A stretch of DNA of 64,000 nt from Haliotis rubra (lineage: Eukaryota). The stretch lies in contig NW_025767079.1 of assembly GCF_003918875.1 (NCBI RefSeq), positions 4,898,001 to 4,962,000 on the forward strand, read 5' to 3'. Position numbers: made by a program. Each line of letters opens with the position of its first letter. Position 1 is the first letter of the stretch. Positions 42,601 through 60,600 of this stretch are shown here, piece by piece.

Positions 42601-45600
42601 AACAAAACTGTTTTACCCCAACAAACAAACAGTTCACATTGGCCATGACGCTGCTGTCAATCTCATGGCAGGGACAGCCCTCAGACAGGCGATCATCGCT
42701 CTGGGAGGAACAGTTTAGGTTATGAGCCAGCATGTCTTGCATATGTCAGAGTGAGTGAGTGAGTAAAGATTTACAATCACATCGGCAAACTTATAAATTC
42801 GCGATAAACACAGTTAAATTTAAAAATAAAACAGTCGGCGTAGGACAGTAAAACAAGTACAATATCACGGGAAAGTACTTAGAACTAGTATCTATCTCTA
42901 AAATTTGATTTCTATTTCAAACAATACGATATATAAACGGACTATAGATCACCATACCATGGGGAAACACAGTACTTTTGCTACTGGCATGGACCCTAGC
43001 TGGATTTACACCATCCCTTCAGATGAAAGCGACAGGAGACAAATCTAGCCATAAATTAAGATCACACATATCCTATGATTTAAAATATGGTAGGTCTAAA
43101 CTTTCTTTGAATGTTTTGGGACTTACTTATCCGCATGTTTCAGAGTTTTTGCACGCTATTGGTGGCCGTCTTCACGAACAAACCCATGGGACCCTAGCCG
43201 AGAGCCGTGATGCGGTCCTATACAGTCAAGACATCGCGGCTCTCGGCTAATGGGAACCGAGCACAAGGCCTGAAATGCCATGCTGGCAGACCCAGCTAAT
43301 GCTCTATGAGGATATAAATATATAACACGTATTTTCCCAATCTGTGTAACATTATTTATGAAATTTTATATTTTAGATCACTTGGTAAATATCTTTATTT
43401 ACGAAGTACACCACTTCTGAAACAACTTTTTAATAAATTCAAGTCAGCGAGCCTGACCACCCGATCCCGTTAGTTGTCTGTGTTACTGAAGACCAAATCT
43501 TCACATGTCACAGCTTGTATTTTATACCTTCTCTTGGCGGAGAGTTTGTCAAAGACAACCCATCGGATAGAATGTTTCCAAAAGTTCCAGTAACGGGCGG
43601 AACTTCAAAATCTGCACTGCACCCTTGCACAAGAAGCTGATGTGTTCAAAGCAAGTACGTCCTCATCGCTATCGGTCCAGAACAATTTTTAAGGATGAAG
43701 AAATACAGTAAAAGCTTTAGAATTTGTTATTACTTTTATCAAATCTCATTTCATTTAAATTCATACAAATCCAACCACTCTCGTAAAATTTCATAAAAAT
43801 GTACATCTCTTTAAAATTTCAAGTTATTATCAGCATATACATTTGAAAACTTCCCTGACATTTTCCACTTAAAAAAAACGTGCGGATGTCTCAATACACT
43901 GGTCACGGAAATCAGTTTTAGCAAAACGCCTCCAGACTGAACAATTAGTGTGGTAAACTGCATTAACGAATGTTTAGCATGGTGAACGTCCGTCTTTTGC
44001 ACACATACAGGTCACACCAAGCCTACTCACATGCTAACATATATCACTACTGTGCAATTCAATTTTAGATTGAAACAGCCGAGAATCTTGTTTCAAAATT
44101 TCAAAATTGAGGGCATAGGAGTTTTCTTCATCTTTCCACACATCAACTGTCAGATTATCCCCCATCAAACTTTCTTTTTGATACAGCATGGATGCCGACT
44201 TAACATAATGATTAAAGCCCTGTGTTGGCTTATTTGCCGACTGCTCTCTGTGTGATATAGCCGCAAGACCATTCAGACAGTACCGAAGGTAGTTTATGTA
44301 GTTCGTATGCAGATTCGGGTCAGTCTCACTTCCGTAGACTCTCATATCAAAAGATGAAATTATATCCCTATTGGCTGGTTTTGAAAGTGGCTTCAGTATC
44401 AGAGGCTCTCCGTCCACACACAACTTGCCATATGTTTCTTTGTATTCCTGAGGAAGCTTTTCCGGAAGTCGTGTCGTCTTGGAAACGAAGACGTTCTGGA
44501 TCCAGCACCTTGCAAGAGGTTGCGGTATCTCCGGATGCATGACGCTGTGAGCAAGGACCATTGTTGAGTTGCCGATGTTGGATAAATACGAGTCAACGAC
44601 CAATGGTGCTTTCGGAGTCGATACGTCGTATAACTCTGGGGCTATTTCTAGTTTCAGTGACACGATAAATGGAAGGTTGTTTTGACACAAGAGGTGGTAA
44701 TCAACGAATGATCTGTTAGGGTCATCGATGGTTGGGATACAGAAGTACACTCGGGCGGAGTCGATCAGATGCAGGACGGACCACGGGCGTACTCGAGCTG
44801 AAAGAGATCACGTACAGGTACAGTATGGAATCCCAGAGGATACATTGCCCCAAACATGCAAAGACGGCTACAGATTTCCCTCAAGAAAAATGACATGAGG
44901 CGGTGGGGTAGCCTTGTGGATAAAGTGTCCGCTCGTCACGCTGAGATGAGGTGAGGTGAAATTGTGTTTAACGTCGCGCTTGAGAAGATTTCGCTCATAT
45001 GACGACGTGCATGCGTGTGTATGTGTATGTGCGGCTACTTGTACTAGCCCAGACGTAAGCTGGTTTTATAGTGCTAGCCCACTGAGATACCATGCCACAG
45101 TGAAGCATGAATACCCCACTCAGACACATTATACTGACTCCAAGCCGACCAGCCTGATGTTCCCCTTCATGCCGAGCGCCAGGCAGGGACCAACAAGTAC
45201 CATATTTTAACGTTTTTTGTTATGACGCGGTTTGGGATCGAACCCGCGACCTTCCGACCTCCGTGCGGACGCTTTAACCACTACACCACGGATGCGGTCG
45301 TCATGCTTAGGACCCGGTTCGATTCAACACATGGGTACAATGTGTGAAGCCCATTTCTGTGTAACTTTTCAAGTGTATTTCGAAAAGCGGTGTAAAACCA
45401 TATTATCTCACTCACAGAGATATAATGTTGGTTAAATGTTGCATAATACAGCTACAGTCGACTGTAATACTGCTGAAGATCAAGTCCAACTCGGATCTTC
45501 ACAAGTTTCAAATGTTGTAAGTTCAGTGAATTAGTGGAGGTTGTCAGGAGTTGTCATAACTCGTATCAACATGCACCGTGTATTCTATATGATTAAATAT

Positions 45601-57600: not shown

Positions 57601-60600
57601 ACCCAGCATGTACAACCCCAGGCTCCCAAAGTATCCAGCGGAGGTTCAGACAAGATTTGCATCTTTCCGAACATCGTCGTTTGTCTGGGAATCCATTCTG
57701 AAGGTACCTGGAGCCCCTCACGTGACAGCTAGTCTAAAAAATAACGGCGTTGTTGTGTCAAAGTCGACCAGGCGACCATGCCCGGTGCCAGATTGGTTTC
57801 GTGAAAAGTTCGGCCGACTGTACAACAAGGATCCTGGGGTTACCTTCAGGAAGGTGGAGACAACTCCTATCAAGATGTGCAGGGGAGTTAACTCTAATCC
57901 TTACATGGTAACAGTTAAAAGTCGGGATATCGATTCGAACCAACACACGAATACGGGTTTGTACCTACAGTACTGTCTTGACGCTCTTGGTGATCATTTG
58001 TTCAGGAACAAGATACAGTGCGAATTAAACACCGAGTCACTCCTCCTCAAATCGGCTACCTTCCTCCACGGGGGTGAGAGTGAGATGGCTGATGTGTTGG
58101 CTGTTGAATTCTGGGATGATGAAACTGATGCTGACATGATATGTTTTAATATTGTCAAGTCAGGAATCAGCATCTACCAGGCTCGTATATGTTTTTATCG
58201 ATATGATGATATATTTGAACAAACCTGCAGACTCTAGCGTCACATTTCAAAGTATAGAACTTTACTGTAAGCAGAAAACTGTGATTTGGATATGTTTATT
58301 CCAGGAACATTTTTGTTTACGTTTAGCGTCGTGCTTTCCCTTGAATTTGCAGGGGACACAAGAAATTGGATTCACACGTGACGAGCTTTAATCGCCGAAC
58401 TACCCCTCCACCCGCACACAGTGCCGACGAAGTACAAGTGTTGTCTTGGGATTAACTCCTCTATAATCCTGTTCTAACGCGTTATGTTAGCATTGGAACA
58501 TATATACATGGAAGATTGGAAGATCTTTGCATCTCCTTGACAATGTATTGTTGTACTTGTAACACTGTTACAAAGGTATGTAACTTTGGATCACGTCTTT
58601 GCAACGTTTATGGTAACAGGATGTGCCACCTTGGATGACGTGCCTACCACGGTGTAACAATGGGCTACTTTTTTCAACGTCCTTGAGAACACGATGCTAA
58701 AATTTGGTTTAACTCAATCGGAAGCTTGTTCAGCAAGAGCAGCATATATCTGTATTAGTATGTGTTCACCATACTGGCTTTGTATCCTGTAGTAAAGTGC
58801 CCTTTTCCAACCTTGTGCCTATTGCTATCCTTTTCACAAGGAGCGAACCCGTAAAGATCCGGGTTAGAATTTGTCTTTAGTAACCCTTGTCGTAAGAGGC
58901 GACTAACAGGATCGGGTCGTCAGGCGATTATTTACAGACCGCAGTCATATACCTGGAATACTGTTGAGTGCGTCGTTAAACAGCAAACCAACCAACCAAC
59001 CACAAGGCTAAATCCTTCACATACAGGTTATGTGTAGATATACAGCGCGAACAAAATGAAAGGTCCAAAAAGTTTCCCAATGGATGAAAAACCAAAGACA
59101 AAATTCAGATTCTACGTTTTCATAGTTTTTAATATATGTAGACACTTAAAGAAACACACACAAAATCATCCACAGCTATTTGATAAGCTAGAAAGTGAAA
59201 TGAAATTTGAAGAAATGAAAGAAAGCAGTAAAACAATGAAAACTAAGAAAGGGTTGTGGCCAAGGTTACTCTATATCGCCCTGTCTTTTCATCCTCGTTG
59301 CGGAAACGTTTGATATTAGTATGAGCGCCTAAAGACATTGCAGAGAGAACCAGACAAGTGAAGAATATGAATGAAGACAGTGTGCAGATAACTCACTTTT
59401 CTTCTGAATTATGCTTAATATTGACATTTTGCCTTCTTTGTGTAGCTTATCAAGATAACTAAAAAGTTTGAAAAAAGAAGCTATTTCGATGGTTTTCATG
59501 CTAGCACTAATATGAAACTGTCAAATCTGTCAGGATTTCGAGTATAACTATCATTCAGAAGAGTTTAAAGTATCACAATAGGATTTAACTTTATTTCAGA
59601 TAGGGTTGCTGATATAATACAAAGAAAAGGGGGAAATACTAAGTACTAACTGACGACTTGCTAGCTGGAAAAAGTGACATTAAAGAGAAAGACAATTTGA
59701 AGTTCACACTCGGATTTACTGACATTTAGATACCCCCCCCCCTGCAATTTATGTGCAAAGTAAGCGAACCTCCCCTGCATGTCATGTACAACATCGATGA
59801 CCCCGACCCCCATATTTTTATGCATAATTTTAAATTAGTTATATTTTCAAAATTTATGACACCCCCACCCCATCCGTACATACGTGCAAAATTGATGACC
59901 CTCCCACCTCCCTAGAACAAAATGTATGATGTGAGTGAGTGAGTTAATATTTAACGTCACATCGGCAATATCTCAGNNNNNNNNNNNNNNNNNNNNNNNN
60001 NNNNNNNNNNNNNNNNNNNNNNNNNNNNNNNNNNNNNNNNNNNNNNNNNNNNNNNNNNNNNNNNNNNNNNNNNNNNNNNNNNNNNNNNNNNNNNNNNNNN
60101 NNNNNNNNNNNNNNNNNNNNNNNNNNNNNNNNNNNNNNNNNNNNNNNNNNNNNNNNNNNNNNNNNNNNNNNNNTGTAAATAAAGCGATCGAATATAGCCT
60201 GCAGTTCCTTCCCTTTGTATGCGCACCACCAAGCTGAACATCTCGTGTCATATCCGGGTTATGGCTTCGCCGGTAAGGACTTTCGGGCTAATATACAGAA
60301 GCTAATTTGGTTCATGAAAATATGAACATGATAATTTACAAATTCATCTGTATTTGTGTGCCGAATGCCTACAATGCTGCTTGTGGAGAGATTCAAGATA
60401 ACGTATATATTTGACTCGTACAATGGCCAGACATTGCGATTTGTGGATCTTGAATAATATCTCTATAGATCTAATTCATTACCAACGTACACCCACATGC
60501 ACAAGAAATATATTAATGGTCCGATAGAGCATAACAGGACAAGGTGCGTACTCTAGTACGGATTTGTTGACATGTAACTTAAGGGTTCAGGTCTTTGTGA

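What the first reader, a model, noticed from the sequence alone, without database searches (positions are those of the whole stretch)
44034..58237. Thioesterase - PhyH dioxygenase - thioesterase trio: candidate animal acyl-tailoring gene cluster
Seen: within ~14 kb an intronless PhyH-type Fe/2OG oxygenase is flanked by two paralogous double-hotdog thioesterase-like genes that share a 101-nt phase 2/1 exon and the DxNxHxN motif. Thioesterase 1 and the oxygenase are head-to-head, with start codons ~1.1 kb apart (49243 and 50360). Known: PhyH-family enzymes often act on acyl-CoA thioesters, and hotdog thioesterases hydrolyse acyl-CoA/ACP. Inference: a co-regulated modify-then-release module for dietary algal (phytol-derived or branched) or specialised lipids. 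Such clusters are rare in animals. Caveat: both families can be expanded in molluscs, so adjacency could be chance.
Basis: partly seen in the sequence, partly recalled or inferred. Interest (0 to 1): 0.65.

Follow-up and report, generated by a model that had tools for sequence, protein, structure and literature searches.

The report
Two thioesterase genes flanking a dioxygenase
Two distantly related thioesterase genes of the plant and bacterial acyl-ACP type sit on either side of a membrane-anchored iron/2-oxoglutarate dioxygenase gene in what looks like a mollusc genome, but nothing yet shows that the three work together.

Summary
The three long coding exons are real and lie at the stated coordinates. 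TE1 (44034-44797, minus) and TE2 (57450-58237, plus) are about 30% identical paralogs (E 7e-27). Their profile matches plant and bacterial acyl-ACP thioesterases (FatB, PDB 5x04, E 1.9e-5). Both carry the Fat-type Asp-x-Asn-x-His motif.

The ORF at 50360-51469 (369 aa) is a PhyH-family dioxygenase. It has the iron and 2-oxoglutarate ligands H113/D115/H212/R228 and a C-terminal membrane helix.

Not confirmed:
- The shared 101-nt exon: 8 and 6 such candidates exist by chance and none are alike.
- The TE1 start at 49243, which is out of frame with that exon.
- "Intronless": a strong acceptor lies 11 nt before the ATG.

Frame-consistent two-exon models exist but are unverified.

Both families have large mollusc clusters in the ESM Atlas; the thioesterase clusters hold 707, 114 and 85 members. 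No scaffold-forming enzyme (PKS, FAS, NRPS) was found in the window. The putative shared promoter is partly SINE sequence.

I read this as ordinary neighbours from expanded families, with about a 25% chance of a true module. A PTS1-like -CRL end on TE2 is a small hint for a peroxisomal link.

The parts
44034..44797 (-). TE1 last coding exon (253 codons plus 2 bases of a split codon, and the stop at 44034-44036). It encodes most of the first hotdog and all of the second.
   Evidence: ORF. Acceptor tttcag at 44803-44798, phase 1. Pfam 4HBT_2 31.1 bits. Paralogy to TE2 at E 7e-27.
44301..44321 (-). TE1 Asp-x-Asn-x-His-x-Asn motif in the C-terminal hotdog
   Evidence: Pattern scan. It aligns to the D-x-N-x-H-V-N-N of the acyl-ACP thioesterase 2own.
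47561..47661 (-). TE1 candidate 101-nt exon (ctgcag| ... |gtagca), unverified
   Evidence: One of 8 open 101-nt candidates. It lies in unique sequence. No Pfam or PDB support. It cannot be joined in frame to either ATG that uses the donor at 49232|49231.
49232..49283 (-). TE1 candidate first coding exon (ATG at 49283, 17 codons plus 1 base, donor CGG|gtgagc), unverified.
   Evidence: One search lists it. Its phase 1 fits the last exon directly. The sequence is shown.
49770..49923 (.). Copy of a dispersed repeat (13 matches in the window) inside the TE1-oxygenase intergenic region
   Evidence: Self-blastn of the window. This is also the segment with the highest CpG o/e.
50336..50349 (+). Splice-acceptor-like site (pyrimidine run plus cag) 11 nt upstream of the oxygenase ATG. 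It probably marks a 5'-UTR intron.
   Evidence: Sequence. This is inference only.
50360..51469 (+). PhyH-family Fe(II)/2-oxoglutarate dioxygenase, a single coding exon of 369 aa plus stop. The catalytic domain spans about residues 1-255. Candidate ligands are H113, D115, H212 and R228. A C-terminal hydrophobic helix spans about residues 350-368.
   Evidence: Pfam PhyH 22.7 bits. Aligned at 23% identity, E 6e-15, to an annotated archaeal PhyH-family protein with all four residues matched. Hydropathy peak 2.04 at residue 350. The only confident AF2 segment is residues 342-368. The Atlas holds the sequence letter for letter.
56554..56654 (+). TE2 candidate 101-nt exon with the best splice signals (caacag| ... 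|gtacgt), unverified
   Evidence: One of 6 candidates. No similarity to the TE1 candidate. No Pfam or PDB hit.
56877..56952 (+). TE2 candidate first coding exon (ATG at 56877, 25 codons plus 1 base, donor ATT|gtaagt), unverified
   Evidence: Its phase 1 fits the last exon. The sequence is shown.
57450..58237 (+). TE2 last coding exon (2 bases of a split codon, 261 codons, then the stop). It ends in -CRL.
   Evidence: ORF. Acceptor ttgcag at 57444-57449, phase 1. Pfam 4HBT_2 26.2 bits and Acyl-ACP_TE_C 21.1 bits. PDB hits to FatA and FatB.
57932..57952 (+). TE2 Asp-x-Asn-x-His-x-Asn motif
   Evidence: It aligns to D-x-N-Q-H-V-N-N of FatA (7hqq) and FatB (5x04).

Best explanation
The locus holds three separate, apparently intact enzyme genes of an invertebrate, most likely a mollusc.

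TE1 and TE2 are old paralogs in inverted orientation. They belong to a family of double-hotdog thioesterases of the plant and bacterial acyl-ACP (Fat) type that forms large mollusc clusters. Each most likely hydrolyses an acyl thioester, on a carrier protein or on CoA, at an Asp-Asn-His centre in the C-terminal hotdog, while the N-terminal hotdog holds the acyl chain.

The gene between them encodes a PhyH-family dioxygenase. It binds Fe(II) through H113, D115 and H212 and 2-oxoglutarate through R228. It is tethered to a membrane by a C-terminal helix and most likely hydroxylates an unknown substrate.

Shown: the family membership, the motifs, the paralogy and the gene order. Inferred: the substrates, the upstream exons, the localisation and any coupling.

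On present evidence the neighbourhood is best treated as adjacency of genes from two lineage-expanded families, for example a dioxygenase gene lying within an old thioesterase duplication. It has not been demonstrated to be a pathway cluster.
For: - Thioesterase families: Pfam 4HBT_2 above cut-off for both, and Acyl-ACP_TE_C at cut-off for TE2.
- Structure-database matches: a profile of the two exons finds 12 PDB sequences at E <= 1. The five best are all acyl-ACP thioesterases (5x04 at 1.9e-5, 7hqq at 9.9e-4, 9mqf, 2own, 8p8k). The alignment to 5x04 covers chain residues 94-250, spanning both hotdogs.
- Catalytic motif: D-x-N-x-H aligns with the Fat motif. D281, N283, H285, E319 and C320 are the listed catalytic residues of UcFatB (PMC9659231, Table 2 passage).
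- Paralogy: E 7e-27.
- Oxygenase: Pfam PhyH. The H-x-D, His and Arg residues are all matched in a pairwise alignment to an annotated PhyH-family protein.
- Family size: the nearest ESM Atlas clusters for TE2 hold 707, 114 and 85 members, and for the oxygenase 57 and 66 members, commonest phylum Mollusca.
- No other biosynthetic family among 146 ORFs of 70 aa or more in the window. The upstream neighbour is the housekeeping OST48/DDOST gene.
- The intergenic 49243-50360 contains repeat copies.
Against: - A thioesterase on each side of the dioxygenase, plus divergent orientation with TE1, is the layout expected of a co-regulated pair.
- If family members were scattered at random through a large genome, such a sandwich would be uncommon. 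I could not compute this, because the family sizes in this genome are unknown.
- TE2 ends in -CRL, which fits the recalled peroxisomal PTS1 pattern [SAC][KRH][LM]. Mammalian PHYH is peroxisomal (recalled).
- The TE paralogs are old (about 30% identity) yet still linked, which could mean the arrangement is kept by selection.
- The Pfam scores are marginal (PhyH 22.7 against 22; Acyl-ACP_TE_C 21.1 against 21).
- Both structure models were too poor to confirm the folds (pLDDT 45.0 and 32.9).
Confidence: 0.6

Rival explanations
1. One reading: a co-regulated mini-cluster. The PhyH-type enzyme oxidises an acyl thioester, for example a branched, phytol-derived acyl-CoA, and the flanking thioesterases release the product, possibly in or on peroxisomes.
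For: - Gene order and divergent orientation.
- The candidate TE1 first exon at 49283-49232 puts the two start codons 1,077 bp apart.
- TE2 has a C-terminal -CRL (PTS1 consensus recalled).
- Animal biosynthetic clusters or 'bundles' exist, and Fe/2OG dioxygenase is among their frequently co-occurring domains (PMC12833800 passages; PMC11869996 passages).
Against: - No expression or synteny data could be obtained.
- Only two families are present and there is no core enzyme in 64 kb.
- The intergenic region is partly repeats.
- The oxygenase has a membrane anchor and no N-terminal PTS2-like signal that I could see. TE1 ends -DIC, so the three proteins need not share a compartment (signals judged by eye against recalled consensus).
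- The thioesterases are of the acyl-ACP type rather than the known acyl-CoA type.
- The one prokaryotic relative of the oxygenase that was found has no thioesterase within 6 kb.
Confidence: 0.25
2. At least one of the three is a non-functional or unexpressed relic: a decaying duplicate or an inserted copy whose long ORF survives by chance or youth.
For: - Upstream coding exons of both thioesterases could not be verified by any search.
- In the alignment to 5x04, TE1 has no residue matching the Fat Glu-Cys pair.
- The oxygenase is flanked closely by SINE copies, at 49770-49923 and 51473-51655.
Against: - Uninterrupted frames of 253, 369 and 261 codons in DNA where few six-frame ORFs reach 120 codons (16 in the window).
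- Motifs conserved between paralogs that are only 30% identical.
- Intact splice acceptors in the same phase.
- The oxygenase protein is already in a public protein set letter for letter. That shows it was predicted, not that it is made.
Confidence: 0.1

Closest known systems
Plant FatA/FatB and bacterial acyl-ACP thioesterases (Pfam PF01643/PF20791; PDB 5x04, 7hqq, 2own, 8p8k, 9mqf)
   Same: - Two tandem hotdog halves.
- The profile alignment spans chain residues 94-250 of 5x04.
- The Asp-x-Asn-x-His motif sits at the same place in the C-terminal hotdog.
- TE2 also aligns a Glu with the catalytic Glu of FatB.
   Different: - Only distant similarity (best E 1.9e-5 with a two-sequence profile).
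- No hit to the N-terminal Acyl-ACP_TE model PF01643.
- In TE2 the Cys next to the Glu is Ser. TE1 has neither at the aligned place.
- The host is an animal, which has no plastid type II fatty-acid synthase. The carrier, if any, is unknown.
- The genes are interrupted by introns.
Human PHYH / PHYHD1 and other PF05721 members
   Same: Pfam PhyH match. The H-x-D, distal His and Arg are in the expected order and spacing.
   Different: - Marginal Pfam score, and no PDB sequence hit at E <= 1.
- A 114-residue C-terminal extension with a membrane helix.
- No PTS2-like N-terminus seen by eye (consensus recalled).
- Substrate unknown.
Animal biosynthetic gene clusters or 'bundles' (bur-ox in mussels, oro in sponges)
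   Same: Adjacent non-homologous enzyme genes in an animal genome. Fe/2OG dioxygenases are common members of such bundles (PMC12833800 and PMC11869996, passages only).
   Different: Those were defined by conservation across species and validated biochemically. Here there are two families, no core enzyme and no comparative data.
Peroxisomal acyl-CoA thioesterases such as ACOT8 (recalled, not tested here)
   Same: A double-hotdog thioesterase with a C-terminal PTS1-type tripeptide, working downstream of peroxisomal lipid oxidation. This would be the functional analogy for TE2.
   Different: ACOT8 belongs to the TesB-type hotdog family, not the Fat type. No comparison was run.

Membership tests
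Fat-type acyl-ACP thioesterase (PF01643 + PF20791) | Two tandem hotdog domains in one chain | tested here: met
   TE2 has two 4HBT_2 stretches. The profile alignment to 5x04 covers chain residues 94-250 across both halves. The secondary-structure pattern of the AF2 model agrees but is low confidence (pLDDT 45). The first strand of hotdog 1 lies outside the verified exon.
Fat-type acyl-ACP thioesterase (PF01643 + PF20791) | Asp-x-Asn-x-His catalytic motif in the C-terminal hotdog | tested here: met
   Present in both genes and aligned to the motif of 2own, 7hqq and 5x04. The residue roles come from PMC9659231 Table 2.
Fat-type acyl-ACP thioesterase (PF01643 + PF20791) | Glu-Cys pair about 34 residues after the His | tested here: inconclusive
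   TE2 aligns Glu-Ser with Glu-Cys of 5x04. TE1 has a gap or His-Tyr there. The alignment is unreliable at this distance.
Fat-type acyl-ACP thioesterase (PF01643 + PF20791) | Pfam models above the gathering score | tested here: inconclusive
   PF20791: TE2 21.1 against 21 (just met), TE1 13.4 (not met). PF01643: no hit for either exon. The upstream exons were not identified.
Fat-type acyl-ACP thioesterase (PF01643 + PF20791) | Hydrolysis of acyl-ACP | not testable with these tools
   Needs an enzyme assay.
PhyH family (PF05721) Fe(II)/2OG dioxygenase | Pfam model above the gathering score | tested here: met
   22.7 bits against a cut-off of 22, E 1.3e-4, which is marginal. All ten of the best family-bearing ESM Atlas hits share a family or clan with the PhyH best hit (three PhyH clusters were shown), the best at 0.98.
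PhyH family (PF05721) Fe(II)/2OG dioxygenase | His-x-Asp ... His iron triad and an Arg for 2-oxoglutarate | tested here: met
   H113, D115, H212 and R228 are each matched to the same residue in an annotated archaeal PhyH-family protein.
PhyH family (PF05721) Fe(II)/2OG dioxygenase | Double-stranded beta-helix fold | tested here: inconclusive
   The AF2 single-sequence model had pLDDT 32.9. It was not good enough for a fold search, so none was run.
PHYH orthologue (phytanoyl-CoA 2-hydroxylase proper) | N-terminal PTS2 signal and activity on phytanoyl-CoA | tested here: not met
   No PTS2-like pattern in the N-terminus by eye (sequence; consensus recalled). Instead there is a C-terminal membrane helix. 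Activity is not testable here.
Metabolic / biosynthetic gene cluster | A scaffold-forming core enzyme or at least three non-homologous pathway enzymes side by side | tested here: not met
   Only two families are present. Pfam scans of 146 ORFs of 70 aa or more across the window found OST48 exons and nothing biosynthetic.
Metabolic / biosynthetic gene cluster | Linkage conserved across species and co-expression | not testable with these tools
   No animal genome or transcriptome collection was open. Both scans of prokaryotic genomes came back empty.

The most novel reading that the evidence does not exclude
The large mollusc family of Fat-type double-hotdog thioesterases supplies the missing trans-acting release enzymes for carrier-protein-bound chains made by the mollusc FAS-like polyketide synthases that lack a thioesterase domain. 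This locus would then be a small tailoring bundle in which a membrane-anchored PhyH-type hydroxylase and two such thioesterases act on the same thioester-bound intermediates.

The literature passages I read say that mollusc AFPK clades 1-3 lack a TE domain and that offloading is unknown for most of them (PMC10764717). [quoted passage not shown]
Probability: 0.07. Interest if true: 0.75.

Novelty: new member of a known kind. Interest (0 to 1): 0.3.

Why it matters
If the three genes were shown to act together, this would be a compact lipid-tailoring cluster in an animal, which is still a rare thing. It would also give a first function to a large mollusc family of plant and bacterial-type acyl-ACP thioesterases. 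I found no description of that family in print: a full-text search for 'acyl-ACP thioesterase' plus 'mollusc' gave 3 papers, none on animal genes by title or abstract start. As it stands the finding is an ordinary neighbourhood of annotated-type enzyme genes. Its main value is as a pointer to that thioesterase family.

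Tried and rejected
UPSTREAM EXONS. All of these gave no signal:
- tblastx between the two upstream regions found only SINE copies.
- Ungapped scoring of all 8 x 6 101-nt candidates.
- Search with the second hotdog's first strand and helix as query.
- Pfam on 127 ORF pieces of 26 aa or more, out of 180 pieces of 20 aa or more.
- Donor-anchored comparison of 100 x 114 phase-1 donors. 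The pair of the 47561 donor (3' end of the TE1 101-nt candidate) with the 56952 donor ranked 822 of 11,400.
- Shuffle tests.
- PDB searches with three single candidate exons.

STRUCTURE. Both models were too poor to use, so no fold search was run.

COMPLEX PREDICTION. No complex-prediction job was sent, because I make no claim that the proteins bind each other.

PROKARYOTIC RELATIVES AND THEIR NEIGHBOURHOODS.
- The two genome-contig scans found nothing.
- The plasmid tblastn gave one archaeal PhyH hit with no thioesterase nearby, and none for TE2.

OTHER CHECKS.
- NCBIfam gave only far sub-threshold YbgC-type hits for TE1.
- CpG profile: no promoter-like island apart from a SINE.
- Retrogene reading of the oxygenase: not supported, given the acceptor just before the ATG. 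Not excluded either.
- tRNA and Rfam scans: nothing relevant.

LEFT OUT OR UNCHECKED.
Exon-model lengths were only added up.
- Paper supplements were closed. The SI tables of PMC10764717 and PMC12833800 might list mollusc clusters or bundles that bear on this locus.
- I do not take the window for human. The nearest Atlas clusters are molluscan.

Full report
WHAT IS THERE

Stop-to-stop ORFs on both strands of 43000-59500 show three outstanding frames:
- 44034-44807 minus (257 codons);
- 50312-51469 plus (385 codons; the first ATG at 50360 gives 369 aa);
- 57377-58237 plus (286 codons).

In the whole window only 16 six-frame ORFs reach 120 codons. One of the four longest, at 30541-31392, is a 69-bp tandem repeat.

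Pfam gives these scores:
- Minus-strand frame (TE1): 4HBT_2 31.1 bits (cut-off 25.5) and Acyl-ACP_TE_C 13.4 bits (cut-off 21).
- Downstream plus-strand frame (TE2): 4HBT_2 26.2 bits in two stretches and Acyl-ACP_TE_C 21.1 bits.
- Middle frame: PhyH 22.7 bits (cut-off 22).

NCBIfam adds only far sub-threshold YbgC-type hits for TE1. The window has one N run (59977-60173), which I left alone.

THE TWO THIOESTERASES

TE1 and TE2 are paralogs: 29.9% identity over 261 aa, E 7e-27, reciprocally E 2e-26, and 32% in a MAFFT alignment. There is no third copy in the window.

Single-sequence PDB searches give weak hits (best E 0.42 for TE1 and 0.025 for TE2). TE1's one hit and five of TE2's seven are acyl-ACP thioesterases. 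A profile of the two exons finds 12 PDB sequences at E <= 1. The best five are all acyl-ACP thioesterases, led by Umbellularia FatB (5x04, E 1.9e-5). That alignment spans chain residues 94-250, from the back of the first hotdog into the second. The remaining seven hits are two further acyl-ACP thioesterases (4gak, 2ess) and five single-hotdog proteins, four labelled thioesterase and one hypothetical.

The D-x-N-x-H-x-N motif was searched in all six frames of the window with a looser pattern. The pattern matched four places, and only the two intact matches lie in these genes. The motif aligns with the D-x-N-Q-H-V-N-N of FatA, FatB and 2own. Table 2 of PMC9659231 (passage seen) lists D281, N283, H285, E319 and C320 as the catalytic centre of UcFatB. 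On the 5x04 alignment, TE2 has Glu-Ser at the Glu-Cys place. TE1 has a gap or His-Tyr there. At this distance I would not lean on that.

The ESM Atlas places TE2 next to three clusters, commonest phylum Mollusca, of 707, 114 and 85 members. Their representatives are 266, 286 and 237 aa long, and the clusters are auto-named for 4HBT_2 and Acyl-ACP_TE_C. Next come bacterial clusters and a plant acyl-ACP hydrolase cluster. So these are Fat-type double-hotdog thioesterases of a family with large mollusc clusters.

THIOESTERASE GENE MODELS

Both long frames begin at a good acceptor (tttcag|C at 44797; ttgcag|G at 57450). Both are in phase 1, at homologous positions in the alignment. TE1 has no ATG for 82 codons, so at least one upstream coding exon is needed.

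The low-confidence AF2 model of the TE2 exon (pLDDT 45.0) shows a full strand-helix-four-strand hotdog in the second half. The first half has only part of a helix plus four long strands. This agrees with a missing N-terminal piece.

- Open 101-nt AG..GT/GC candidates number 8 upstream of TE1 and 6 upstream of TE2, so finding one in each gene is expected by chance.
- The best by splice signals are 47661-47561 and 56554-56654. The two candidates with GC donors (47658-47558 and 56844-56944) are weaker.
- No pair is similar beyond shuffles.
- None hits Pfam or the PDB.

That ends in phase 0 and cannot feed a phase-2 exon.

Frame-consistent alternatives exist:
- An ATG at 49283 reaches the same donor in phase 1 after 17 codons.
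- An ATG at 56877 reaches a perfect gtaagt donor in phase 1 after 25 codons.

Added up, without joining any sequence, these give 271 and 287 residues, close to the Atlas representative lengths. The two short peptides are not similar to each other, so these models are also unverified.

THE DIOXYGENASE

The 369-aa protein has no PDB sequence relative at E <= 1. It is held letter for letter in the ESM Atlas. Its nearest clusters are PhyH clusters whose commonest phylum is Mollusca, with 57 and 66 members at scores 0.98 and 0.95.

tblastn against plasmids finds one record, an annotated PhyH-family gene of a haloarchaeon: residues 1-255, 22.7% identity, E 2e-7. In the pairwise alignment (E 6e-15), H113, D115, H212 and R228 are each matched. 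That is the iron triad and the 2-oxoglutarate arginine expected of the family. The middle residue is Asp, so a hydroxylase type rather than a halogenase type is expected (family knowledge, recalled).

Residues 256-369 lie beyond the domain and end in a hydrophobic helix. The hydropathy peak is at residue 350. This is the only confident part of a poor AF2 model (pLDDT 32.9 overall, 85-89 over the last 20 residues).

The coding sequence is uninterrupted. However, a pyrimidine run plus cag ends at 50349, 11 nt before the ATG. The gene therefore probably has a 5'-UTR intron and is not strictly intronless.

THE NEIGHBOURHOOD

- TE1 and the oxygenase are divergent. TE2 follows the oxygenase on the same strand, so the two thioesterase genes are inverted relative to each other.
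- Between the candidate TE1 start (49283 or 49243) and the oxygenase ATG lie about 1.1 kb. This stretch includes one copy of a dispersed repeat (49770-49923, 13 matches in the window) and a local duplicate pair (49363-49443 and 49628-49708).
- CpG o/e shows no island other than that repeat.
- 24% of 43500-58800 is repeated elsewhere in the window.
- Pfam on 146 ORFs of 70 aa or more across the window found no PKS, FAS, NRPS, P450 or other biosynthetic family. It found four exons of the OST48/DDOST gene on the minus strand (32000-39697) and one sub-threshold SAD/SRA piece.
- The archaeal relative of the oxygenase has no thioesterase within 6 kb.

HOW IT MOST LIKELY WORKS

Shown:
- two Fat-type hotdog thioesterase genes with the Asp-Asn-His motif;
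- one PhyH-type dioxygenase gene with a complete ligand set and a membrane helix.

Inferred:
- Each thioesterase hydrolyses an acyl thioester. The Fat-type relatives act on acyl-ACP, and an animal could offer FAS- or PKS-type carrier domains, mitochondrial ACP, or CoA esters.
- The dioxygenase hydroxylates an unknown substrate at a membrane.

TE2 ends in -CRL, which fits the PTS1 pattern as I recall it. TE1 ends in -DIC. I saw no PTS2-like N-terminus on the oxygenase. If the -CRL signal is real, TE2 would sit in the organelle where mammalian PHYH acts.

IS IT A CLUSTER?

I could not test conservation of linkage or co-expression:
- The genome collection is prokaryotic, and both scans were empty.
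- Paper supplements were closed.

Literature passages show that animal clusters or 'bundles' exist and often include Fe/2OG dioxygenases (PMC12833800; PMC11869996). They also show that mollusc AFPK clades 1-3 lack a thioesterase domain and that offloading is unknown for most of them (PMC10764717). [quoted passage not shown]

Full-text searches found no paper on a mollusc-encoded acyl-ACP-type thioesterase: 3 papers hold both terms, none on animal genes by title. None was found on a PhyH expansion in gastropods: 0 papers and 6 papers with 'mollusc'. For these searches I saw listings only.

The AFPK-offloading idea is the boldest reading not excluded (0.07).

VERDICT

The genes are new members of known families. 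Interest is modest (0.3), mostly for the little-studied animal Fat-type thioesterase family. I do not take the window for human sequence.

Noticed in passing
window 32000-39697, minus strand: Four ORF pieces match OST48 (DDOST) domains: OST48_MD at 32000-32215, 32751-33065 and 33363-33602, and OST48_N at 39398-39697. A multi-exon housekeeping gene lies just downstream of TE1 on the same strand.
   Followed up: partly
window 46375-46564, 51473-51655, 53463-53640, 56194-56361, 48890-49045, 47188-47273: A dispersed SINE-like repeat has up to 15 matches in the window. It fills the introns of both thioesterase genes and starts 4 nt after the oxygenase stop codon. ARAGORN finds no tRNA-like head.
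   Followed up: partly
window 49770-49923 (also 12151-12468, 43437-43640, 58755-58919): A second dispersed repeat family (13 matches) is recognisable by a recurring pseudo-peptide in ORF lists. One copy sits in the TE1-oxygenase intergenic region.
   Followed up: partly
window 45798-46255: A 61-bp tandem repeat, 7.5 copies at 90% match, lies inside the large TE1 intron.
   Followed up: no
window 16737-17824; 30791-31422; 36677-37350; 15394-15784: Further minisatellites: 46 bp x 23.7, 69 bp x 9.1, 174 bp x 3.9 and 34 bp x 11.8. The 69-bp array creates long spurious ORFs on both strands at 30541-31392.
   Followed up: no
window 22988-23227, minus strand: An ORF piece matches the end of the SAD/SRA domain, 28.5 bits against a cut-off of 30.7. 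It may be an exon of a UHRF-like gene.
   Followed up: no
window 25884-25950, minus strand: An Rfam tRNA match sits right at the gathering score (29.3 against 29 bits, E 0.051). ARAGORN does not call it. It may be a tRNA-derived repeat.
   Followed up: no
window 58226-58234: TE2 ends in Cys-Arg-Leu, which fits the peroxisomal PTS1 pattern as I recall it. TE1 ends in Asp-Ile-Cys.
   Followed up: partly
window 59977-60173: A run of 197 N, either an assembly gap or masked sequence. It was left untouched.
   Followed up: no
window 21383-21868, minus strand: A 162-codon open frame rich in Asp, Glu and Ser with no family match. It may be an exon of an acidic protein.
   Followed up: no
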